Origin: Escherichia phage KEP3
Sequence record: PP047753
Strand: one strand, 5' to 3'
Length of the DNA: 64,000 bases
Positions within the stretch are counted from its first letter, which is position 1, and every line of letters begins with the position of its first letter. Below are positions 4,579 through 63,996 of the stretch, in pieces. Made by a program: the position numbers and the translations under genes. Under the pieces are notes generated by a model. The model was not told the origin of the DNA and made no database searches. It worked only from the letters and a program-made list of their open reading frames with translations.

Positions 4579-6532
4579 CCTCGCTTAATACAGGTGGAAT
4601 CGTTGAGCTTTGACGCTGTTCTTCAGTATAGACTTCACCAGTCTCACGGTCAAACACTTCATCCTCATAATGAGGTAAAGAGTCGTCATAATGGTCTTCA
4701 GCTTCACCAATACCAAACTGTTGACGGATATTTTCTGCTGCACCATCAATGTCAACACCACACCCAGAAGCTTTGATAAGACGCCCTGTGTCTGGATTGT
4801 ACCAAGTATGACCAGCAATACCTGTTGACTTACCATGACGACGACACTTAGTTAACTTGATTTTTGTCAAGTTTTTCTTAACAGGGTCTGGGTCAACCTT
4901 GTTACGCATTAACAGGATGTTGTTCATGGAAATCTGGAAATACGCACCAGAGCCTTTAATGTCCTCTTCAGAGATATCTCCACCTTCAGAGTTAGCTTTC
5001 TGACCACCTGCACTCTTACGAACGTGACATACGTTAACCTGTGCATACTGGTAGCGTTTGCAACGACGTAATAGTTCAGACAAAACCTCCTCTTCATCTG
5101 TATCTGAACGTGACAGAGCCAGCGTAATAGGGTCAAGAATTATAATCTTACAGTCTAAACTGTTAACAAGATAGTCAACAAATTCCAGCAGGTTATCTTG
5201 GTCAATTGCCCCTTGATGGTCTACGATGTGGATACGACGACCTTTAGATAGTTCTGCGTGTGCTTCCTTTAATTCATCCCAATCACGTTCGTCATAAGGA
5301 ATCTCGGAAATCTGCTTACTCAGGTGGATTGCACAGAGCATCTCCATCAACTCTTCGTAGGTATCTTCTACAGGAATTACACCAATATTATAATCGGTTT
5401 CCTTCCAAGCTGAATAAATCATCTCACGAGTGTAAGCTGACTTACCTACTGAAGATGGTGCTGCCAGAGTTGTAATCTCACCTAAACCATAACCACCATA
5501 AGTCAGTCTGTTCAAATCCCCGAAAGATTCTGGGAAAGGAATCAAAGGAATCTGACCACGATTCTTCATTGCCTCAAAACCATCTGCAAAGTTCTTGATA
5601 CCAGCAGGGCAATAACGAGGTGCATTGTAGATACGCTGCTTAAATCCTTCAAGAACTGTATCTTTCTCTTTATAGAACTTTGTCCACCATTCATTAAGGT
5701 CTTTTACACCTTCTGGATACTGGAATAAACGAACCTTCTCAATAGGTAGGATACCAGCAGCCTCTTTGGTGGCTTTAGCACCCGCTTCATCGTTATCAAA
5801 GCACAAGTAAATCTCATCAAATGATGTGATGTACTGATAGTTGTCTTTGATAGACTTAATGTTTGCACCTGATGGGACAGATACGTGGCAGTAATTCTTA
5901 CGACGAGACTTATCTTTAATTGCCAGAGAAGTCATGTAGATTGCTGTAGCACATTCCATCTCACCTTCCCAGATGAATAGACGGTTGCCACCTTCTGGAG
6001 CAATCCATGAACCAAACATTGCCAGTTCACCTTTAATGTCTCCAACACCACCTGAAAAGTCTTTTAGCTTACCACGTAGGTGCTCTTTTGGGTGGTCTTC
6101 TGGGTAACGGTGACGAACACGGTAGCCAACATGTTCTAGCTTGCCATCTTCATTACGTTTGTAAGTCGGATAGAAATGTGCATCAATTTCACCATCACTG
6201 TCAATGTCGACCTTGATACCTAAGCGTTCAAGAACTTTTGCAGGAATCTTCCTGTCTTTCAAGTCCATTGCTTCAAGGTTTTCTTTTACATCGTCTAAAT
6301 CCATTCCACGGAAAGTACGGTTTTTATTATCTGAACCAGTAGAATAAGTGCTCACAATCTGTCCTTTATCAAAATCCCACTCTGGGAAACCTTTCTTACA
6401 ACTAAAGCAAGTCATCGAATAAGAATCATCGTCATGATGGTAGATTGAACCAGCATCTGATGAACCACAACGTGGACATGCACAATGACCAACAAACTGA
6501 CCAGCCTCTTTCAATTTACGACCTTTAGACAT
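4547..6532 (-). CDS. DNA primase-helicase (zinc finger + TOPRIM-like + DnaB-like helicase)
   Basis: CPRCGSS...CFSCKKG zinc ribbon; Walker A APSSVGKS; start moved to ATG at 6532 with GAAGAGGTG RBS. Confidence 0.8.
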   Translation of the reverse strand: MSKGRKLKEAGQFVGHCACPRCGSSDAGSIYHHDDDSYSMTCFSCKKGFPEWDFDKGQIVSTYSTGSDNKNRTFRGMDLDDVKENLEAMDLKDRKIPAKVLERLGIKVDIDSDGEIDAHFYPTYKRNEDGKLEHVGYRVRHRYPEDHPKEHLRGKLKDFSGGVGDIKGELAMFGSWIAPEGGNRLFIWEGEMECATAIYMTSLAIKDKSRRKNYCHVSVPSGANIKSIKDNYQYITSFDEIYLCFDNDEAGAKATKEAAGILPIEKVRLFQYPEGVKDLNEWWTKFYKEKDTVLEGFKQRIYNAPRYCPAGIKNFADGFEAMKNRGQIPLIPFPESFGDLNRLTYGGYGLGEITTLAAPSSVGKSAYTREMIYSAWKETDYNIGVIPVEDTYEELMEMLCAIHLSKQISEIPYDERDWDELKEAHAELSKGRRIHIVDHQGAIDQDNLLEFVDYLVNSLDCKIIILDPITLALSRSDTDEEEVLSELLRRCKRYQYAQVNVCHVRKSAGGQKANSEGGDISEEDIKGSGAYFQISMNNILLMRNKVDPDPVKKNLTKIKLTKCRRHGKSTGIAGHTWYNPDTGRLIKASGCGVDIDGAAENIRQQFGIGEAEDHYDDSLPHYEDEVFDRETGEVYTEEQRQSSTIPPVLSEDADDCPFETE

Positions 6533-14476: not shown

Positions 14477-14533
14477 AGTTTCTAAAGAGTCTTCTGTTGA
14501 GGGTTCTTTACAAACAACTTAACAATAAACTAA

Positions 14534-15139
<606 letters not shown>

Positions 15140-15141
15140 TT

Positions 15142-15582
15142 ATGAATACAAAAGCATTAGCAGCAAAGTTTAGTTACGGTGACACTGTATCACACTCTGA
15201 GATGGATACCTTCTTAGGTATTGTGAAGCCAACTTATCAAGGTGACATTGTTAAGTACGAAGATGAAATGAAGGCTTATGCACTTACACGCCTAAACCGA
15301 CTTGAGAAGTTTATTGAGAAGCTTCTTAAAGAAGAGAAGATTTATCTGGTTGCTTCAATGGGTGTTGGTTATCGTGTGGTTGAACCTAAGCATCAAGCAA
15401 CTATTGCAAAACGTAAAATGTCTGGTAAGATTGGTCGCGCTTTAAAGCAAGCCACTCAAGCGATTGAGAATGTGAACACTATGGCACTTAGCCATCAAGA
15501 ACGCTCACGACTGATTGAACAGCAAAACCATTTAGCTGCTATGAAAGCTAACATTAACAAGCAACGTAGAAAACCTTTCTAA
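15142..15582 (+). CDS. hypothetical protein
   Basis: ORF track. Confidence 0.5.
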   Translation: MNTKALAAKFSYGDTVSHSEMDTFLGIVKPTYQGDIVKYEDEMKAYALTRLNRLEKFIEKLLKEEKIYLVASMGVGYRVVEPKHQATIAKRKMSGKIGRALKQATQAIENVNTMALSHQERSRLIEQQNHLAAMKANINKQRRKPF

Positions 15583-15593
15583 GTTGACTAGGT

Positions 15594-15616
15594 AGCCTCT
15601 TCGGAGGCTCCTTTTT
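15594..15616 (+). terminator. rho-independent terminator (AGCCTC-TTCG-GAGGCT + T5)
   Basis: GC stem, tetraloop, T-run. Confidence 0.6.
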
Positions 15617-15717
15617 AAAAGGTCTTTAAGAGGGTCTTTTAATGAGGTTTGGTATGGTCAGGTATGGTGTGGTGTTGTAAGGTTTGGTGCGGTCAGGTTA
15701 GGCTTGGTATGGGTAGT

Positions 15718-15745
15718 TAATCGGAGCTACATAAAAATCCGATTA
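15718..15745 (+). other. hairpin H3 (stem TAATCGGA/TCCGATTA, loop GCTACATAAAAA)
   Basis: Inverted repeat; loop conserved, stem differs from H1. Confidence 0.6.
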
Positions 15746-15855
15746 CATCACTTAAGAGTCTTCTAAGAGGGTTTTTAAGTGGTGTTTGGTAGGATAGAGT
15801 AAGGTAAGTTAAGGTAGGGTGAGGTCTGGTATGGTAAGGTAATGTATGGGTAGTT

Positions 15856-15881
15856 AGTCTCAGCTACATTAAAATGAGACT
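15856..15881 (+). other. hairpin H4 (identical to H1)
   Basis: Exact repeat of 14306-14331. Confidence 0.6.
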
Positions 15882-15982
15882 TACCTTTTTAAAAGGTCTT
15901 TTAAGAGGGTCTTTTAACAAGGTATTGTATGGTGTAGTTTGGTTAGGTATGGTTAGGTGTGGTAAGGTAAGGTATGGAAGGA

Positions 15983-16010
15983 TGGCAGTAGCCTTATAAA
16001 AAATCTGCCA
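15983..16010 (+). other. hairpin H5 (stem TGGCAG/CTGCCA, loop TAGCCTTATAAAAAAT)
   Basis: Inverted repeat with related loop. Confidence 0.55.
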
Positions 16011-16012
16011 AA

Positions 16013-16057
16013 TAAGCTATAAAATCTGTTGACAAGTCAGGTGTTATAGCTTATTTT
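16013..16057 (+). promoter_or_regulatory. promoter candidate (TTGACA 16029-16034, TATTTT -10) flanked by inverted repeat AAGCTATAA/TTATAGCTT
   Basis: Seen directly; spacer 17. Confidence 0.4.
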
Positions 16058-16101
16058 TATACTCAATGTAATACAAAATTTAATATAACTTTGAGGTCAT
16101 T

Positions 16102-16485
16102 ATGAAAAAGATTTTATTAGCTGCTGCAATGGTTATGGCAATGAATTTACCAGTCAATGCAACAGAACTCCCAAATGTGGACTTATCAGGTGTTTCAGAA
16201 GACACTTGCCAGATTGTTAAAGGTGTTGCGCTATCTAAAGGTGAGTTACTTAAACCAATCTCTGAAGAGTCTTTGACAGAGATGACTGATAAGGTGACTG
16301 ACTACCAGTATCGTGTTCTTGCAGAGTATTTCCTGCAATCTGCAAACATTAAAGAGAAACACCATGACGATATTGATGTACAGGCGATGCTCAATCATCG
16401 CATCCAGTTTAAAGAAGATTTGATGCAAAAAGCTATGTATGGTGTTGAGTATTTCTTAGAAAACAGAAGCTGCACAGGTATTTGA
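16102..16485 (+). CDS. secreted/periplasmic protein (signal peptide)
   Basis: N-terminal MKKILLAAAMVMAMNLPVNA; GAGGT RBS. Confidence 0.5.
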   Translation: MKKILLAAAMVMAMNLPVNATELPNVDLSGVSEDTCQIVKGVALSKGELLKPISEESLTEMTDKVTDYQYRVLAEYFLQSANIKEKHHDDIDVQAMLNHRIQFKEDLMQKAMYGVEYFLENRSCTGI

Positions 16486-16486
16486 T

Positions 16487-16699
16487 ATGGCTCTTAAAAA
16501 GTTACATCCCAGAAGCGGTTATGGTAAGATAATTGACGATACAGACGGCTTTACAGTCTTTACAGTTATCTGTCAAGATGATTCACAGATTGAAAAGGCT
16601 CTTGATGATTATCTTAACGATGAACGTGAAAAGGTTAGAGCTACAAACATAGACTCATTGATTGACACTTCACGCAAACGGAAGAAGAAAGATGAATGA
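16487..16699 (+). CDS. hypothetical protein
   Basis: ORF track. Confidence 0.4.
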   Translation: MALKKLHPRSGYGKIIDDTDGFTVFTVICQDDSQIEKALDDYLNDEREKVRATNIDSLIDTSRKRKKKDE

Positions 16700-16991
16700 G
16701 GTTTTTGACCCTTATGCTCCACAAGATGATTGGGAGGCTGATAGAGAGGCTGAAATGGAGAGTTATATTTGCCCAATGGATGTAGACGAAATGAGAGACT
16801 TCGTTGCACATCGTTTTAAGAGAGAGATTAAATCCAGAGGTCTTTCTCAAGAGCAAGTTGCTAAAATTTGTGGTATCTCTCAGGCTCGTGTATCCAACAT
16901 AATCCACCTCACTGGGAATGTTTCCCTTGAGTATATGTTGGAAGTATGTGAAAAATTTGGTGTTAATTTCAATTTAAGGTTGGCAGATTAA
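16692..16991 (+). CDS. helix-turn-helix DNA-binding protein
   Basis: VAKICGISQARVSNIIHLTGN resembles XRE/Cro-type HTH; start set to ATG 16692. Confidence 0.5.
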   Translation: MNEVFDPYAPQDDWEADREAEMESYICPMDVDEMRDFVAHRFKREIKSRGLSQEQVAKICGISQARVSNIIHLTGNVSLEYMLEVCEKFGVNFNLRLAD

Positions 16992-16992
16992 T

Positions 16993-17352
16993 ATGAAACG
17001 TGAAAACATTATCCACTCTGAAAACTTCGCACTAGGCTTTTATGGTGCACCTACTCACCTTGAAAAGTACTACGGTGTAAAAATTCTTTCCAATCTCATT
17101 ATGGCTTACAAAGATGGTAAGATTAAGCACACTGAGAAGAAACGTGTCATGGGCTACATGGCTGTAGGTTCAGCAATCTCGAACATTAAGCTGGAAACCA
17201 CTAGCAGTCAGATTGTAAAAGACCACTTCATCAAAGAGCTTTACCATAATCTTGACGGTGTAGATGTTCAGGCTGTTTGGTTGGATGTTGATGGTCACAA
17301 CTACACAAGTTTCGTTTTCAAAAACGACGACATTAAGTGTCTGTTCCCATAA
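16993..17352 (+). CDS. hypothetical protein
   Basis: ORF track. Confidence 0.45.
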   Translation: MKRENIIHSENFALGFYGAPTHLEKYYGVKILSNLIMAYKDGKIKHTEKKRVMGYMAVGSAISNIKLETTSSQIVKDHFIKELYHNLDGVDVQAVWLDVDGHNYTSFVFKNDDIKCLFP

Positions 17353-17881: not shown

Positions 17882-18142
17882 ATGAAAATTGAACACTGCT
17901 ATGAGTCTGATGGAACACCTATCCGATGTCCACATTGTGGATGTACAGACTTGCAAGGTGAGGTAAGTGAAATAGTCAACGGTCATATCGCTGAAGAGAG
18001 TACAAGGTGTACAGGGTGTAATGAAATCATTGCTTTCTGGGCTTATGGTTCATACCAACCTGCACCACACTTAATCTACCATAGCAATAAAGCTGTGAAG
18101 AATGTTATCAACTGGTTCATTAAGAAAGGATTTACAAAATGA
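17882..18142 (+). CDS. small zinc-ribbon protein
   Basis: CPHCGC...CTGCNE cysteine pairs. Confidence 0.45.
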   Translation: MKIEHCYESDGTPIRCPHCGCTDLQGEVSEIVNGHIAEESTRCTGCNEIIAFWAYGSYQPAPHLIYHSNKAVKNVINWFIKKGFTK

Positions 18143-59690: not shown

Positions 59691-59722
59691 AGAGCCTCCT
59701 TAATTGGGGGCTTTTTAATTTT
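59691..59722 (+). terminator. rho-independent terminator ending plus-strand cluster
   Basis: AGCCTCC-TTAATT-GGGGGCT followed by TTTTTAATTTTT. Confidence 0.6.
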
Positions 59723-61269
59723 TATAAAATTTTATCGGTTGTCCCAACCTCTGGGTCACCATCATATGTGAATAAAATATCTACCCTTCTTAACAACCTT
59801 CTTAAGCTTACTCTCTATATAGTTATATAGTACTATATAGTATCTTAGTATCTATCTAGTGGTCTTAATAGCCCCTCTGTATAGCCCTTCTAAACACTCT
59901 TCTAACAAGCCTTCTTAACAACCTATACAATCACCTTAACCATCTCTCTACACCCTCTTAGAAGCTCCTATACACCTCTTAATCTCTAGGTTAGCTATGT
60001 TACCCTCTATAGGTGTTCACTAGGTATTACTAAGCCTCTATATAGACTGTTTTAACAAACTTAACAGGAATATCTTTACAGACCTTATCTCACAAGGTCT
60101 AACACGGTACTAACAAGGTATCTTATAAGCCTGTTTCTACCTGTATTTTTAAAAGACTGTCTAGGTAATTATTCAGAATTTTAAAATTTTTATAAAATAG
60201 GACTATCAAGTCATTTTTTTAGGGTCTTTGAAGGGACTGAAAAATATCTGTAGAAGATGTATATCTGCTTGGTAGCCCTTAACAGCTCCCTTACAAGTAC
60301 TTTGCAAAATTTTAAAATATCCTTAACAATCTCTTAACAACTCTCTCAAGCTCTTAACACCTCTTCAAAGGTCTTAACAGTTTCTTAACAGAACTAACAA
60401 GAACTTAACAGTTTTCTAACAAGTGCTGAATAGTCTTTACAGAGTCTTAACAGATAACTAACAAGAGCTAACAAGTTAATTTTTAAGAGTTATTTTGTTA
60501 AGATAATTAACAAGTTCCTAACAAGTGTTTAATCTTTTTAACAAGCTATTAACATGGTCACTATCTCTTTTCTTATCGTTCCCTTTCCCTCTTAGTGAAT
60601 CTCTAAACATACCTCTTAAAAACCCTCTATAGCCCCTTATAAGCCCTTTTAAGTCTCTTCCTAGTATTTACCCCTCAACTGTATGGATAGCTCTTTATAG
60701 GGCTTTACAGGAGCTTTTAAGGCTATGCCAAAGACTCTTACAAGGCTTTTACGTGGTCTTAACAGAGATTTAACAAGGGGCTAACAAGTCTCTAACAAGC
60801 ATAACTATGTAGGGATTGTTAAGAAATTGTTAAGAAAATGTTAAGGGGGCTAGCATTTACGTAACTTTATAGCCTCTTTCACGTAACTTTGAAGTAACTT
60901 TATAGCCCCTATAACATACTTTTAAGACACTAACAAGCCCTTTTTAGATATTCACAAGATAGCTAACGAGATAATAAAGCTTACACCCTTATAAGATTCT
61001 TTTAAGCCTCTAGGAAGCTTTATAAAGGGCTTTTAATGGTTAGGTAATGCAATCCCTTAAGTTAGGTTGATAAGGCTGTTATAGGGCTTTATAGAGCGTT
61101 TAAATGGGCCATCCCCTTTCTGGGGTTATTGGCTTTTATTTAAGTTGATTTGATAAGGGGCTATAGAGTAAGCTATAGAGTTATTGCTTTTAAGGTACGA
61201 GATAGATTCTATCGAATCAGTGGGATAGATTCTGGAAAGGGAAGGAAAGAGATTGTATAGAGATTTGAT
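59723..61269. repeat. 1.5 kb non-coding repeat-rich region (YTAACAR iterons, TATATAGT, GTTAAGAAA, GTAACTTT, GATAGATTCT repeats)
   Basis: No ORF of 60 aa or more; about 20 YTAACAR copies in 60290-60560. Confidence 0.8.
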
Positions 61270-61293
61270 AAGACGTAAAAAGCCCCATTTAAG
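61270..61293 (-). terminator. rho-independent terminator ending minus-strand small-gene series
   Basis: Minus-sense GCCCCTTAAATGGGGC + TTTTT; second GC hairpin at 61297-61312. Confidence 0.6.
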
Positions 61294-61336
61294 GGGCTGT
61301 AAAGGTATCTGGGGCTATTTAGCCCCGTTGCGTCGA

Positions 61337-61585
61337 TTAGTTGTACCCTTGTTTGCTGTAGTACAGGGAGACAATCAAATCACCCCAATAATGGTAATGA
61401 TGTTCATCGTTTAACGCCTCTTTTACTGCATCTTTCCAGAAGTCATCAGTAGGGTTATAATCTGGGATAACTTGCTTAATAACTGTCTTCACTAATGAAA
61501 AGCATTCATCAGTTCCACCAATATCAAATTTAACGTCCAGAGTGTAGCAGCCATAAGCATTAACAGTAGCGCGGATAGTAGCCAT
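61337..61585 (-). CDS. hypothetical protein
   Basis: ORF track; preceded by conserved module 1. Confidence 0.45.
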   Translation of the reverse strand: MATIRATVNAYGCYTLDVKFDIGGTDECFSLVKTVIKQVIPDYNPTDDFWKDAVKEALNDEHHYHYWGDLIVSLYYSKQGYN

Positions 61586-61650
61586 TTTTGAATCTCCTAG
61601 TTTAAGGTATTTATCTAGTGGGAGGTAATAACCTCCCGTTGATTAGTAAT
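61586..61650 (-). promoter_or_regulatory. conserved upstream module copy 1
   Basis: Fills space between upstream stop and next ATG; GC hairpin + AGGAGA RBS. Confidence 0.6.
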
Positions 61651-61914
61651 TTACTGCATGTTGGCGTAGGTTGCAAGTCTTTTTTCGTTGTATTTTGTCA
61701 GAATCTCACAAGATAATACATCGTACTTTGTAATAGCGTTGCCTTTGTCGAGGTCAAAGAATCCGAATGCTTTACCGTCTTTGAATCCGACAACTTCGTA
61801 AGATTCTTTAATGATTTCACCATTGAACAAATCACTTTCGATACGGTGGAATAGCGCTACATCCTCTTTGTCGGTTGCAATTTGTAAAAGTGTGGTCAGT
61901 TCGACGTGTTCCAT
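61651..61914 (-). CDS. hypothetical protein
   Basis: ORF track. Confidence 0.45.
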   Translation of the reverse strand: MEHVELTTLLQIATDKEDVALFHRIESDLFNGEIIKESYEVVGFKDGKAFGFFDLDKGNAITKYDVLSCEILTKYNEKRLATYANMQ

Positions 61915-61975
61915 TTTGAATCTCCAGTTTAGGATTTTATTTAGTGGGGGAGGTCATCCCCCGTTGATTGACAAT
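61915..61975 (-). promoter_or_regulatory. conserved upstream module copy 2
   Basis: GGGGGAGGTCATCCCCC hairpin, CTGGAGATTCAAA-ATG. Confidence 0.6.
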
Positions 61976-62506
61976 TTACAGACTTTTGATTGTCTCGTCA
62001 ATATCTTTTTCAATTTCTCTTAAAGTTTTTTCTAAGTTCTTGATATTCAGCATTAACCCCTCTCCCAGTGTCTTAGCGTAACCATTTGGGCGATGGTCAT
62101 AAAGCTCGATTTCTTCCACTTCGTAAAGGCTGACATTGAAGCCCCCTACCCCGTAGGCTGTGGATGAAGTGCCTTCCGGTGCTTTGTAGTATTTATTGAG
62201 ATTCTTTAAAGAGCGCTCGTAAGCCATACGATAACCGTTTAACACTGTTTTGGTGCAATCGCGTACACTTTCACACTGTGCCGCATACTTTTCTAAGAAC
62301 AGCGGGAGGAGTTCCGCTACCGCTTGCATGAAGTGACGAACAACGAAAGTAGACATATTACGGCGGTGAATGTAGAAAACACCCGTATCAGATTTAGTGA
62401 TAGTTGCGAAATGTTCACCATTGCAACGGAATTCATAGGTATCTTTTACAGGCTTGGACATTACACGATTTGAACGAATGTAATTGATTGCTTGAAACTT
62501 GTTCAT
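61976..62506 (-). CDS. hypothetical protein
   Basis: ORF track. Confidence 0.5.
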   Translation of the reverse strand: MNKFQAINYIRSNRVMSKPVKDTYEFRCNGEHFATITKSDTGVFYIHRRNMSTFVVRHFMQAVAELLPLFLEKYAAQCESVRDCTKTVLNGYRMAYERSLKNLNKYYKAPEGTSSTAYGVGGFNVSLYEVEEIELYDHRPNGYAKTLGEGLMLNIKNLEKTLREIEKDIDETIKSL

Positions 62507-62575
62507 TTTGAATCTCCAGTTTAGGATTTTATTTAGTGGGGGAGGTCATCCCCCGTTGATTAGTAATTTACTTGT
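62507..62575 (-). promoter_or_regulatory. conserved upstream module copy 3
   Basis: Near-identical to copy 2. Confidence 0.6.
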
Positions 62576-62722
62576 TTTAATTTGTCTTTGCAAGCAATTT
62601 TTTAAGTTTATCTATAAAGAATCTTTTAAGTGAATCCCTTTTAGATAAACCCCCTCGAACAAATGTACTATTGTCAAGGGGTATCGTCAAGTAATTTTTT
62701 AAAGTTTTTTATAAGTTATTGA

Positions 62723-63064
62723 TTAACTGATGAATATTTTTTCAGGTTTTACATAACTGATACGCTGGCTTTTTAGCAAGTCATCCCAGATTAGCGCGGC
62801 AATGTGCCCATATCCGGCCTCACGTAACCCCTTCATCGTTTCAACTCGACTCTCAAAACGATTTGCGTAGTACTCGCTATTCAGTGTCGTTTTATTCCCT
62901 TCGTTATCTGTATGGATGATTTGCATTACCTGAAAGGGGCTTACATCCTCGCCTTTGTTCCACTGCTCAAAGTATTTTAGGCACTGCATAGGTGACATCT
63001 TATCACTAACCTGAGTTGACCAAGATGAATTCTCTTTATCGGTAATTACAGTTACATAAGCCAT
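62723..63064 (-). CDS. hypothetical protein
   Basis: ORF track. Confidence 0.45.
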   Translation of the reverse strand: MAYVTVITDKENSSWSTQVSDKMSPMQCLKYFEQWNKGEDVSPFQVMQIIHTDNEGNKTTLNSEYYANRFESRVETMKGLREAGYGHIAALIWDDLLKSQRISYVKPEKIFIS

Positions 63065-63153
63065 TTTTGAATCTCCAGTTTAGGACTTTGTTTAGTGGGG
63101 AAGTTCATTCCTTCCCCGTTGATTGACAATTTACAGATTTTTATCAGGCTTGT
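63065..63153 (-). promoter_or_regulatory. conserved upstream module copy 4
   Basis: Variant hairpin GGGGAAG...CTTCCCC, same flanks. Confidence 0.55.
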
Positions 63154-63387
63154 CTAGTCTTTTTCAATGATAATTTCATATTGGCCGTCCACGCTGTCAA
63201 AATAGATACCGTCTTCATCTTCTGTCTTAAAGTAACATTGTATATCATCACTGGCGGGATAGTCTTGCCTTGCTATCTGGCAAACTTGAATAGCATTTTC
63301 TTTACTCCCTGTAAACTCCTCAAGCCCTTTAAAATCGCATGAATGACCGTTACAAATAGAAAGGATGAGATAAATGGTTGTCAACAT
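63154..63387 (-). CDS. hypothetical protein
   Basis: ORF track. Confidence 0.4.
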   Translation of the reverse strand: MLTTIYLILSICNGHSCDFKGLEEFTGSKENAIQVCQIARQDYPASDDIQCYFKTEDEDGIYFDSVDGQYEIIIEKD

Positions 63388-63453
63388 GATTTAAGCCCTC
63401 TAAAAGCCCCTACAAGGGGCTGATTAGTGTTTATAAGGTGATTGCATAGGTTT

Positions 63454-63996
63454 TTAGAAAAAGCTCTTTAAATCCTCTTCTGCAATGTTTCCTGTCAGTG
63501 TATCCATGATGTCACAAAAAACCTGAATACTGTCTGACTGTTGAACACTTTTAGCGAGAAGCTCCAGAGACTCATCAAGATAGTTTAAATTTGGGTTATC
63601 CAGTGAAGGGAGACAAAAAGGTGAAAACATAGCGTTAAACTCTGTTGTATAGACCTTTTTAATCCAATTTACATCAAAGTACTCTGTAAAACTTGCTAAA
63701 CTCGACATATTATCACAAGAATAATCATCATTTAGCTCATCCTCTGGAATATCGAGTTCTAAGATAACAATATTTTGGGTTTTCATCTGGAAAGCTGCGG
63801 TGATAGTGGCATTTCCTAGAGCTTGTTGGATACCTTCTGATGCTATTTCTTCCTCATCGTCGCCATAGATTTTATTTTCTGGATACACGTAAAAATTGCC
63901 GTCCATATCCGAACAATTCCATGCGCCTGATGGTTTATCACCGTTATTAATCAGGTTGATGAAGTTTTCTTGAGTAGTTCCGTGATAGCATTTCAT
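63454..63996 (-). CDS. hypothetical acidic protein
   Basis: ORF track; ATG at 63996. Confidence 0.45.
   Translation of the reverse strand: MKCYHGTTQENFINLINNGDKPSGAWNCSDMDGNFYVYPENKIYGDDEEEIASEGIQQALGNATITAAFQMKTQNIVILELDIPEDELNDDYSCDNMSSLASFTEYFDVNWIKKVYTTEFNAMFSPFCLPSLDNPNLNYLDESLELLAKSVQQSDSIQVFCDIMDTLTGNIAEEDLKSFF

What the first reader, a model, noticed from the sequence alone, without database searches (positions are those of the whole stretch)
61586..63153. Four near-identical ~65-bp modules, each filling the space upstream of a small gene
In gene sense each module reads: upstream stop TAA, ATTGTCAATCAACGG, a GC hairpin (GGGGGATGACCTCCCCC or variant), ACTAAATAAAATCCTAAACTGGAGATTCAAA, ATG. 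Copies are at 61586-61650, 61915-61975, 62507-62575 and 63065-63153. They combine a TTGTCA element, a hairpin with covarying stem and a fixed RBS context. This suggests a shared promoter/operator or RNA-processing cassette, possibly for a phage-specific transcription factor or RNA polymerase, controlling a tandem series of small early-type genes. The hairpin is not followed by a U-run, so it is unlikely to be a plain terminator.
Basis: seen in the sequence. Interest (0 to 1): 0.65.

Follow-up and report, generated by a model that had tools for sequence, protein, structure and literature searches.

The report
Repeated early promoter–hairpin–RBS gene cassettes
The four repeats are copies of a compact expression cassette of a Felix O1-like phage, made of a host-type promoter, a short RNA hairpin and a fixed ribosome-binding leader; each drives one small early gene, and the cassettes also act as crossover points where such genes are gained and lost, as in the 'PeSL' cassettes of T4-like phages.

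Summary
Four ~100-bp modules lie on the minus strand, one upstream of each of four small genes. The window is a Felixounavirus, 99.9% identical to Escherichia phage vB_EcoM_DE17.

Each one starts about 35 bp further upstream and contains:
- an A-tract;
- a TTGACA-like -35 box;
- an exact 17-bp spacer;
- a TAAATT -10 box, which in two copies doubles as the upstream gene's stop codon;
- an invariant ATCAACGG;
- a 6-8-bp GC hairpin starting 11 nt after the -10;
- an AU-rich leader, a GGAG ribosome-binding site and ATG.

In 90 distinct copies from relatives, 87 keep a -35 box at exactly 17 bp despite unrelated spacers. The stem covaries, and its frequent G·U pairs point to a sense-strand RNA structure. 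"TTGTCA" is not conserved and is not the -35 box.

Comparing 11 genomes shows genes being gained and lost one gene plus one module at a time. The junction modules are chimeric, with two different crossover points.

This is the PeSL (promoter-early stem-loop) architecture of T4-like phages, found here in the Ounavirinae. I rate it a new member of a known kind. The promoter role is well supported. What the hairpin does (5' stabiliser, attenuator or insulator) is inferred only.

The parts
63062..63164 (-). Module 1 (type A), upstream of the 113-aa gene. A-tract; -35 TAGACA 63156-63151 (overlaps the TAG stop of the upstream 77-aa gene); 17-bp spacer; -10 TAAATT 63133-63128; predicted start of transcription at A63120 or C63121; SD GGAG 63076-63073; ATG 63064-63062.
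   Evidence: 87.7 bits
63097..63117 (-). Module 1 hairpin GGGGAAG-gaatgaa-CTTCCCC (7 bp)
   Evidence: module-1 leader (63062-63125, including this hairpin) folds at -16 kcal/mol, z -2.95
62504..62601 (-). Module 2 (type A), upstream of the 176-aa gene. -35 TTGCAA 62593-62588; 17-bp spacer; -10 TAAATT 62570-62565; predicted start A62557 or C62558; SD 62517-62514; ATG 62506-62504.
   Evidence: 64.4 bits
62538..62554 (-). Module 2 hairpin GGGGGA-tgacc-TCCCCC (6 bp)
   Evidence: module-2 leader (62504-62562, including this hairpin) folds at -14.4 kcal/mol, z -2.70
61912..62009 (-). Module 3 (type A), upstream of the 87-aa gene. -35 TTGACG 62001-61996 lies inside the last codons of the 176-aa gene (DIDETIKSL*); -10 TAAATT 61978-61973, whose TAA is that gene's stop codon; predicted start A61965 or C61966; SD 61925-61922; ATG 61914-61912.
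   Evidence: 66.2 bits
61946..61962 (-). Module 3 hairpin, identical to the module 2 hairpin
   Evidence: module-3 leader (61912-61970, including this hairpin) folds at -14.4 kcal/mol, z -2.54
61583..61684 (-). Module 4 (type A), upstream of the 82-aa last gene. -35 TTGCAA 61676-61671 lies inside the end of the 87-aa gene; -10 TAAATT 61653-61648, whose TAA is that gene's stop codon; predicted start A61640 or C61641; SD 61597-61594; ATG 61585-61583.
   Evidence: 73 bits
61620..61637 (-). Module 4 hairpin GGGAGGT-tatt-ACCTCCC (7 bp)
   Evidence: module-4 leader (61583-61645, including this hairpin) folds at -15.4 kcal/mol, z -3.53
62723..63064 (-). 113-aa gene served by module 1 (phrog_4318, unknown function). 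Homolog of Felix O1 ORF21, which peaked 5 min after infection.
61976..62506 (-). 176-aa gene served by module 2 (phrog_4725, unknown function). Homolog of Felix O1 ORF22, which peaked 5 min after infection.
61651..61914 (-). 87-aa gene served by module 3 (phrog_7022). Present or absent among close relatives; the indel is bounded by modules 3 and 4.
61337..61585 (-). 82-aa last gene of the array, served by module 4 (phrog_4559)
61281..61298 (-). Canonical intrinsic terminator (hairpin plus T-run) that closes the array; shown for contrast with the module hairpins
63405..63421 (-). Canonical terminator-like hairpin with a T-run (CCCCTTgtaGGGGCTTTT) between the 180-aa and 77-aa genes
   Evidence: (D14)

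Best explanation
Each module is a self-contained early-expression cassette of a Felix O1-like phage. It has three jobs.

1. Promoter. A strong host sigma-70 promoter (upstream A-tract, TTGACA-like -35, 17-bp spacer, TAAATT -10) is packed into the last codons and stop codon of the preceding gene.

2. Leader. The transcript is predicted to begin 7-8 nt after the -10, at or near the first A of the AAC in ATCAACGG. It would carry a stable GC hairpin 3-4 nt from its 5' end, followed by an unstructured AU-rich leader with a GGAG Shine-Dalgarno 7-8 nt before the ATG. I infer that the hairpin acts at the RNA level on the sense strand. In the cassette's own transcript it would be a 5'-proximal stem-loop that slows 5'-end-dependent decay and keeps the ribosome-binding leader free of upstream pairing. 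In transcripts reading through from upstream promoters it would sit just after the upstream stop codon, as a weak attenuator or a barrier to 3' exonucleases. Either way each small gene is insulated as its own unit.

3. Recombination linker. Because about 70-100 bp are shared between cassettes, they act as portable homology for recombination. Genes enter, leave and swap one gene plus one cassette at a time.

Shown here: the anatomy, conservation of the promoter geometry, covariation of the stem with a sense-strand bias, restriction to the small-gene array, and indels bounded by chimeric modules. Inferred: promoter activity, the exact start site, and what the hairpin does.
For: - Identity: the window is 99.9% identical to Felixounavirus DE17.
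- Promoter geometry: 87 of 90 distinct type A copies from 23 loci have at least 4/6 matches to TTGACA exactly 17 bp upstream of a TAnnnT hexamer (TAAATT in 67). The mean is 4.82 matches at that offset against 1.0-1.6 at offsets of ±1-3. There are about 50 different spacers in at least 6 unrelated spacer families, and some -35 boxes lie inside unrelated coding sequences. The generic scanner independently calls modules 1 and 3.
- Fixed spacing: the distance from the -10 to the stem is 10 unpaired nt in 87 units and 11 in 6, while the hairpin-to-SD distance varies from 13 to 24.
- Hairpin: 95% of cells are paired, 4 of 8 pairs show compensatory changes, and 0/500 shuffles reach the observed values. 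Pair 23-77 is G·U in 58 of 92 rows. The sense strand folds better than the antisense in 29 of 41 distinct hairpins.
- First promoter: the first copy in the array also carries the hairpin, although a strong canonical terminator lies about 350 nt upstream. That fits a role in the cassette's own transcript.
- Early expression: Felix O1 ORF21 and ORF22, homologs of the genes behind modules 1 and 2, peaked at 5 min by RT-PCR (PMC3185647).
- Recombination: cassette maps of 10 genomes plus Felix O1 show single-gene gains and losses. The junction where the 87-aa gene is missing is a chimera of modules 3 and 4, with two different crossover points. Only 17-21 of 55 modules are most similar to their positional ortholog, and 16-19 are most similar to a paralog in the same genome.
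- Precedent: the same architecture was defined, and its promoter and terminator activities were measured, for PeSLs of phages RB49 and phi1 (PMC2839356).
- 5' stem-loops as mRNA stabilisers in E. coli: this rests on established literature (Emory, Bouvet and Belasco 1992; Bouvet and Belasco 1992) that I recall rather than read; only confirmed that the review PMC3997798 lists these papers.
Against: - No transcript ends have been mapped for any Felix O1-like phage that I could find. The promoter, the start site and every hairpin role are therefore predictions.
- TAAATT matches the -10 consensus at only 4 of 6 positions, although it keeps A2 and T6.
- The second module type in the same array (type B) has its hairpin inside the promoter spacer and -10, so that hairpin is not in its own transcript. 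A 5'-stabiliser role therefore cannot be the general function of these hairpins.
- The covariation counts come from related copies and are inflated by shared descent. The G-run and C-run arms also pair well when slid by -1 to -3 (91-94% paired).
- Module-bounded indels could also arise if each incoming gene simply brought its own promoter, rather than by recombination between resident modules.
Confidence: 0.7

Rival explanations
1. The hairpin is primarily a transcription terminator or attenuator for transcripts coming from upstream, so the module is a terminator-promoter pair and its position in the cassette's own 5' leader is incidental. This partly overlaps the best explanation.
For: - GenBank records of relatives annotate these hairpins as 'rho-independent terminator predicted by WebGeSTer', directly after an annotated promoter.
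- The PeSL stem-loop of RB49 211/210 cut lacZ expression about as much as rrnB T1 (PMC2839356).
- In type B modules the hairpin lies upstream of the predicted start site, so it can act only on read-through RNA.
- With a promoter before almost every gene, some attenuation would stop transcription from piling up towards the end of the array.
Against: - No T-run follows the stem; the sequence is ACTAAATAAAAT. The terminator scan finds none at the modules, yet it finds the two canonical terminators in the same region. The phage therefore uses proper terminators where it needs them.
- The first promoter of the array keeps the hairpin even though a strong terminator already lies upstream.
- The -10-to-stem spacing is almost invariant, which a terminator for upstream RNA would not require.
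Confidence: 0.3
2. The module is an RNA-processing cassette. The hairpin and the AU-rich tract direct endonucleolytic cleavage (RNase E, or a phage RegB-like nuclease acting at GGAG) that cuts the polycistronic RNA into monocistronic units, each ending in a protective 3' hairpin.
For: - In both module types a stable hairpin is followed by a single-stranded AU-rich leader.
- GGAG is the invariant Shine-Dalgarno sequence. From memory, T4 RegB cuts early mRNAs at GGAG.
- The structure is selected on the sense strand.
Against: - The stem is far too short for RNase III (6-8 bp).
- No Rfam family matches.
- No nuclease was identified in the array; all six proteins tested fall in PHROG families of unknown function.
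- Because each module has its own promoter, processing is not needed to obtain monocistronic expression.
Confidence: 0.15
3. This is the first reader's idea: the module is a promoter or operator for a phage-specific RNA polymerase or transcription factor, with TTGTCA and the inverted repeat as the DNA recognition site.
For: - ATCAACGG is invariant in about 90 copies, more conserved than the -10 box itself, and its position is fixed. A bound factor could explain that.
- How Felix O1 times its transcription is unknown (PMC3185647).
Against: - TTGTCA is present in only 2 of 4 window copies and varies in relatives.
- A complete sigma-70 promoter sits at a fixed offset.
- The stem sequence varies with compensatory and G·U changes, which does not fit a sequence-specific duplex DNA site.
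- Felix O1 reportedly encodes no RNA polymerase and no T4-like polymerase modifiers.
Confidence: 0.07
4. The repeats have no function. They are leftovers of serial duplication or of a small selfish repeat that spread through the intergenic gaps.
For: - The copies are very similar to each other.
- Paralogs within one genome can be identical, which suggests gene conversion.
Against: - The -35 box and the 17-bp spacing are maintained across unrelated spacers and inside different coding sequences.
- The stem is maintained by compensatory changes.
- The promoter-plus-hairpin layout persists in Mooglevirus, and a type B-like module with a changed stem (GGTG.../...CACC) is present in the much more distant Erwinia phage Omen.
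- The copies always have the same orientation and sit exactly in front of a start codon.
Confidence: 0.05

Closest known systems
PeSL (promoter-early stem-loop) cassettes of T4-like phages RB49/phi1, PST/T4 and nt-1/KVP40 (Arbiol, Comeau, Krisch 2010, PMC2839356; Comeau 2014, PMC4122927)
   Same: - Both are composite units of about 100 bp: an AT-rich tract, a near-consensus sigma-70 -35 and -10 with a 17-bp spacer, a GGGG...CCCC stem-loop with G-T pairs, then SD and ATG.
- Both are repeated in front of small genes of unknown function in a hyperplastic early region.
- The stem-loop position relative to the promoter varies between subclasses. Here type A has it downstream of the -10 and type B has it spanning the spacer and -10.
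- Indels between close relatives are bounded by the elements, with crossovers between the -10 and the ATG.
   Different: - The phage lineage differs (Ounavirinae, not T4-like) and I found no sequence homology, so it is an analog.
- The layout is more compact: the upstream stop codon overlaps the -10 or the -35 instead of lying upstream of the promoter.
- In type A the hairpin begins about 4 nt after the predicted start site, so it is part of the cassette's own 5' leader, at a nearly invariant distance.
- Promoter activity, terminator activity and mini-circle formation were measured for PeSLs and have not been measured here.
5'-terminal stabilising stem-loops of E. coli mRNAs (ompA, papA; Emory, Bouvet and Belasco 1992, recalled from memory; reference list of PMC3997798)
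   Same: A stable hairpin lies within a few nucleotides of the predicted 5' end, followed by a single-stranded leader and the ribosome-binding site.
   Different: The 5' end is only predicted here. With 3-4 unpaired nucleotides the protection would be borderline. Type B modules of the same array lack a 5' hairpin.
Canonical intrinsic (rho-independent) terminators
   Same: A GC-rich stem of 6-8 bp with a short loop, placed just after a stop codon. Relatives' records annotate it as a terminator.
   Different: There is no U-tract. The same region has canonical terminators with T-runs at 61281-61298 and 63405-63421.
Direct repeats listed in the Felix O1 genome paper (Whichard 2010, PMC3185647): the 39-bp TTGACACTGGTTTTTAGATAGATTAAATTACACATCAAC and the 57-bp CTTTACATGGGGCTTAAAAG...
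   Same: They are the same elements. The 39-bp repeat is the promoter half of a type A module and the 57-bp repeat is a type B module.
   Different: The paper listed them only as repeats. It did not include them among its predicted promoters and left open how transcription passes the many terminators.
Moron and integron-type gene cassettes
   Same: Single small accessory genes come and go as units that carry their own expression signals, or are flanked by a repeated hairpin-forming element.
   Different: No integrase or attC-type site is evident. Unlike morons, the flanking elements are homologous to one another and appear to be the crossover sites themselves.

Membership tests
PeSL-type promoter/stem-loop cassette (Arbiol 2010) | Sigma-70-like -35 and -10 boxes with a spacer of about 17 bp | tested here: met
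   All 4 window copies have it. 87 of 90 distinct copies have at least 4/6 matches to TTGACA at exactly 17 bp from a TAnnnT hexamer. This is a sequence-level test only.
PeSL-type promoter/stem-loop cassette (Arbiol 2010) | AT-rich tract upstream of the -35 | tested here: met
   GAAAAAGA- or AAAAAATT-type A-tracts occur in all 4 copies. The consensus is 'taAAAAa' upstream of the -35.
PeSL-type promoter/stem-loop cassette (Arbiol 2010) | Stable stem-loop, typically polyG/polyC with G-T pairs, within or next to the promoter | tested here: met
   The four window module leaders fold at -14 to -16 kcal/mol. 95% of cells are paired, with compensatory changes and frequent G·U. The position is downstream of the -10 in type A and across the spacer and -10 in type B.
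PeSL-type promoter/stem-loop cassette (Arbiol 2010) | Shine-Dalgarno sequence and start codon of the downstream gene at the 3' end | tested here: met
   GGAG lies 7-8 nt before the ATG in all four copies.
PeSL-type promoter/stem-loop cassette (Arbiol 2010) | Clustered in a hyperplastic region of small genes of unknown function, and associated with indels between close relatives | tested here: met
   All 7 type A and 4 type B copies of the genome lie in one 5.6-kb array. The cassette map shows single-gene gains and losses and chimeric junction modules.
PeSL-type promoter/stem-loop cassette (Arbiol 2010) | Upstream stop codon in the AT-rich region before the -35 (described as typical, not strictly defining) | tested here: not met
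   The stop codon overlaps the -10 in copies 3 and 4 and the -35 in copy 1. The layout is therefore more compact than in PeSLs.
PeSL-type promoter/stem-loop cassette (Arbiol 2010) | Measured promoter and terminator activity, and formation of mini-circles by recombination between elements | not testable with these tools
   This needs reporter fusions and inverse PCR. The only indirect support is RT-PCR timing in Felix O1, where ORF21 and ORF22 peak at 5 min.
PeSL-type promoter/stem-loop cassette (Arbiol 2010) | Homology to the T4-like PeSL sequences, or residence in a T4-like genome | tested here: not met
   The host genome belongs to the Ounavirinae. Blastn of the module hits only Felixounavirus- and Mooglevirus-type records. 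It is therefore an analog, and I file it as the same kind of system, not the same family by descent.
Canonical intrinsic terminator | GC-rich hairpin immediately followed by a U-rich tract | tested here: not met
   The hairpin is present, but the 3' flank is ACTAAATAAAAT. The terminator scan reports none at the modules.
RNase III processing site (T7-type) | Extended double-stranded RNA of about 20 bp or more | tested here: not met
   The stems are 6-8 bp.
5'-terminal stabilising stem-loop (ompA type) | Hairpin within a few unpaired nucleotides of the real 5' end, with a measurable effect on half-life | tested here: inconclusive
   The stem starts 11 nt after the -10 in 87 of 95 units, which predicts 3-4 unpaired nucleotides. 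The start site and half-life have not been measured.
Phage-polymerase promoter (T7- or N4-type) | A phage-encoded RNA polymerase and its specific promoter sequence | not tested
   I did not search the window for a polymerase gene. The Felix O1 paper reports none (PMC3185647). A full sigma-70 promoter is present instead.

The most novel reading that the evidence does not exclude
The invariant ATCAACGG, together with a hairpin at a fixed distance from the promoter, is a recognition element for a dedicated factor, not just a passive leader. The factor could be a phage-encoded RNA-binding protein or nuclease that switches the whole early cassette set on or off after transcription. It could instead be a recombination helper that actively mobilises gene-plus-cassette units as mini-circles. 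In the second case the array would be an integron-like, actively shuffled accessory-gene system shared across the Ounavirinae.
Probability: 0.12. Interest if true: 0.65.

Novelty: new member of a known kind. Interest (0 to 1): 0.35.

Why it matters
- It fills a gap in a classic phage. The 2010 Felix O1 genome paper could not say where early transcription of this region starts. These cassettes give about 11 predicted early promoters, with start sites predicted to the nucleotide for the four in this window.
- It suggests that the PeSL principle (a promoter, a GC stem-loop and an RBS reused as a portable linker for shuffling small accessory genes) is not peculiar to T4-like phages. It appears to have arisen, or been kept, in a separate myovirus subfamily that is widely used for phage typing and therapy.
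- It has practical uses. The cassettes mark where accessory genes can be swapped in engineered Felix O1-like phages, and they are compact strong expression parts.
- It corrects database annotation. The hairpins are labelled as terminators in some records, and one Felix O1 gene (ORF19) is annotated as starting at the ATG inside the hairpin loop.

Tried and rejected
- TTGTCA as the -35 box: rejected. It is 23 nt from the nearest -10-like hexamer and is absent from 2 of the 4 copies.
- A -35 box inside the hairpin (ATGACC) or a T4-late-like TATAAATA in ACTAAATA: rejected. The spacing is wrong or the sequence is not conserved.
- A MotA-box middle promoter (TGCTT): it is present only in copy 2.
- An upstream mini-ORF starting at the AUG in the loop (AUGACC...UAA): rejected. 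The AUG alternates with AUA and is absent from copy 4.
- Known RNA families: nothing relevant came up. The only Rfam hits are far below their gathering scores.
- Function of the downstream genes: all six proteins fall in PHROG families of unknown function.
- First fuzzy-regex scan: it timed out and I replaced it with nhmmer and a covariance model.
- MAFFT alignment of the hairpins: they were misaligned, so I used a structure-aware covariance-model alignment.
- Pattern scan of viral contigs: it returned mostly single chance hits. Only contigs of about 85-90 kb with multiple hits were used.
- Transcript maps of Felix O1-like phages: none were found in the literature.
- One preprint on promoter-terminator coupling could not be opened.
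- Integron attC, MITE or homing-endonuclease explanations: not pursued. No integrase or nuclease gene lies in the array, and the G·U pattern points to RNA.
Full report
**What the window is.** The region 61300-63500 is 99.9% identical to Escherichia phage vB_EcoM_DE17. About 250 Felix O1-like phages (Felixounavirus, Mooglevirus) share it at 60-97% identity. The window corresponds to DE17 coordinates shifted by 49,484, so the window together with DE17 1-45,000 (L002) covers the whole genome. The finding lies at the downstream end of a minus-strand array of about 15 small genes. That array runs past the window end.

**Checking the observation.** The four copies are real.
- The leader core occurs 3 times with at most 2 mismatches, against 0.01 expected by chance.
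- A covariance model of the module finds exactly four sites in the window, even with filters off and E<=1.
- Each copy folds into a 6-7-bp GC hairpin with z = -2.5 to -3.5.
- The stems differ but stay complementary.
- No T-run follows the hairpin.
- 'TTGTCA' is in only two copies; the other two read TTACTA.

**Each module is longer than described.** Reading 50 nt further upstream shows that every copy is preceded by an A-tract, a TTGACA-like hexamer (TAGACA, TTGCAA, TTGACG, TTGCAA), exactly 17 bp, and TAAATT.
It is the true stop codon in copies 3 and 4.
- In copy 1 the true stop codon (TAG) lies inside the -35 box.
- The generic promoter scan independently reports copies 1 and 3 at 9/12 matches.

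Among 90 distinct copies gathered from 23 loci, 87 have at least 4/6 matches to TTGACA at exactly 17 bp. The mean is 4.82 matches, against 1.0-1.6 at neighbouring offsets. They use about 50 different spacers in at least six unrelated families, and several -35 boxes sit inside the C-terminal codons of unrelated genes. Shared descent alone would not produce that pattern; selection for a promoter would.

**Predicted start site.** The distance from the -10 to the first paired base is 10 nt in 87 units and 11 nt in 6. By contrast the hairpin length (17-21 nt) and the hairpin-to-SD distance (13-24 nt) both vary. With the usual start 7-8 nt after the -10, and a preference for pyrimidine at -1 and purine at +1, the transcript would begin at or near the first A of the AAC in ATCAACGG. 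That puts the hairpin 3-4 nt from the 5' end.

**The hairpin.**
- In a structure-aware alignment of 126 hits (92 distinct), 95% of cells pair and 4 of 8 pairs show compensatory changes. Examples are A-U to G-C or C-G, and G·U to A-U or G-C. No shuffle out of 500 reaches the observed values.
- The majority G·U at pair 23-77 would be an A·C mismatch on the other strand. The sense strand folds better than the antisense in 29 of 41 distinct hairpins. This points to a sense-strand RNA structure and not to a DNA operator or cruciform.
- Caveats: the copies are related, so the counts overstate the number of independent events. The G-run and C-run arms also pair when slid by a few columns.

**The rest of the family.** DE17 has 7 copies of this 'type A' module. 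It also has 4 copies of a 'type B' module, with layout TTTACA, 17 bp, TAnnnT. In type B an 8-9-bp hairpin (GGGGCTTA...TAAGCCCC) spans the spacer and the -10, followed by AGATAAAGAGCTTTACC and the same leader. The loop sequence varies, but a TAnnnT hexamer is always kept at 17 bp (TAAAGT, TATCTT, TAGGAT, TAAGAT, TAGTAT). The stem shows compensatory and U·G changes. All 11 copies lie in one 5.6-kb array, and there are none elsewhere in the genome.

The distant Erwinia phage Omen (Kolesnikvirus) has type B-like modules with a changed stem, GGTG.../...CACC. The architecture is therefore probably old within the Ounavirinae.

**Gene shuffling.** A map of genes and modules in ten genomes, plus Felix O1, shows single genes present or absent, each together with one module:
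- the 87-aa gene in the window is absent from pinkbiff, JohannRWettstein, BPSELC-1, Felix O1 and Mushroom (Mushroom also lacks the following 82-aa gene);
- a 52-aa gene is present only in DE17, ASO1A and HMD-P10;
- a 70-aa gene and a 170-aa gene replace one another;
- Maleficent carries extra genes;
- Felix O1 lacks three consecutive genes.

Where the 87-aa gene is missing, the single remaining module has the promoter half of module 3 and the leader half of module 4. The switch lies after the hairpin in pinkbiff and BPSELC-1. It lies just after the -10 in JohannRWettstein and Felix O1. That indicates at least two independent events inside the module homology.

The transcribed part of the modules does not follow the flanking genes. 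Only 17-21 of 55 modules are closest to their positional ortholog, while 16-19 are closest to a paralog in the same genome. Modules 2 and 3 of the window share an identical hairpin and leader. This indicates exchange or gene conversion between modules.

**Comparison with what is known.** The PeSLs of T4-like phages are defined as an AT-rich tract, a sigma-70 -35 and -10, a polyG/polyC stem-loop with G-T pairs placed variably relative to the promoter (including between the boxes, over the -10, or downstream of the -10), then SD and ATG. They cluster in hyperplastic regions and sit at indel junctions. Their promoter strength, terminator effect and mini-circle formation have been measured (PMC2839356; PMC4122927).

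The Felix modules meet every sequence-level criterion. They differ in four ways:
- they are in a different phage subfamily;
- I found no sequence homology to the T4-like elements;
- they are more compact, with the stop codon inside the promoter;
- in type A the hairpin sits at a fixed position inside the cassette's own 5' leader.

The Felix O1 genome paper listed the 39-bp and 57-bp repeats, which are the promoter half of type A and a type B module. It did not count them among its promoters, and it stated that how transcription proceeds and is timed is unknown (PMC3185647). Its RT-PCR shows ORFs 16, 20, 21 and 22 of this array peaking at 5 min. Some GenBank records annotate 'promoter' followed by 'terminator (WebGeSTer)' at these sites. 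I found no paper describing them as PeSL-like cassettes. The searchable library is incomplete, so this is not proof of absence.

**What the hairpin does (inferred).** Two readings compete and may both hold.
- For a role in the cassette's own transcript: the nearly invariant spacing to the -10, and the hairpin at the first promoter of the array, which sits about 350 nt downstream of a strong canonical terminator.
- For a role on read-through RNA, as attenuator or 3' barrier: the type B hairpins lie upstream of their own start site, and the PeSL precedent supports this role.
- Against canonical termination: there is no U-tract, and proper terminators are present nearby.
- RNase III is excluded by stem length.
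- No Rfam family matches.
- The downstream proteins are all of unknown function.

**Verdict.** It is a new member of a known kind and of moderate interest. Its main values are precise, testable start-site predictions for a classic phage and the extension of the PeSL shuffling principle beyond T4-like phages.

Noticed in passing
window 59700-61300: About 1.6 kb with no ORFs lies between two convergent gene blocks. It is packed with short direct and inverted repeats (TTAACAAG/CTAACAAG, CTATAAAG and others). Several GenBank records of relatives begin or end about 1 kb beyond the array, inside this region. It may therefore hold the physical genome ends, a packaging site or an origin.
   Followed up: partly
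L002 (DE17) 14510-17250, minus strand, beyond the window end: A second module type (type B) has the layout TTTACA, 17 bp, TAnnnT, with an 8-9-bp hairpin GGGGCTTA...TAAGCCCC spanning the spacer and -10, then AGATAAAGAGCTTTACC and the same leader. There are four copies in DE17. A type B-like version with a changed stem is in Erwinia phage Omen.
   Followed up: partly
window 62576-62722, minus strand: The 216-nt gap upstream of module 2 holds another promoter-like site (TTGACG, 17 bp, TACATT at 62690-62662). It also holds a 37-aa TTG-start ORF (62577-62690) that ends at the TAA of the module's -10. Relatives annotate a small gene here (Maleficent 46 aa, BPSELC-1 38 aa), so in this window it may be a decayed cassette.
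   Followed up: no
window 61637-61644, 61962-61969, 62554-62561, 63117-63124 (ATCAACGG): The 8-mer ATCAACGG between the -10 and the stem is invariant in about 90 distinct copies, including Mooglevirus. I saw one G-to-T exception, in Felix O1 ORF21. It is more conserved than the -10 hexamer, and I have no explanation for why.
   Followed up: partly
L002 (DE17) 17900-18090, minus strand: Three to four repeats of TTTTCATTTT...ATTGTGCAGGTA lie between the strong terminator after the phosphatase/macro-domain gene and the first early promoter of the array. They might be a regulator-binding site.
   Followed up: no
L131 (Felix O1 NC_005282) 4784-5101: Felix O1 ORF19 is annotated as starting at the ATG inside the module hairpin loop (ggggagggaATG), which makes it 45 nt longer than its homologs. 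This is probably a mis-called start codon.
   Followed up: partly
window 63405-63421, minus strand: A canonical terminator sits in the middle of the array, between the 180-aa and 77-aa genes. The 77-aa gene has no module or recognisable promoter of its own, so it would have to be expressed by read-through.
   Followed up: no
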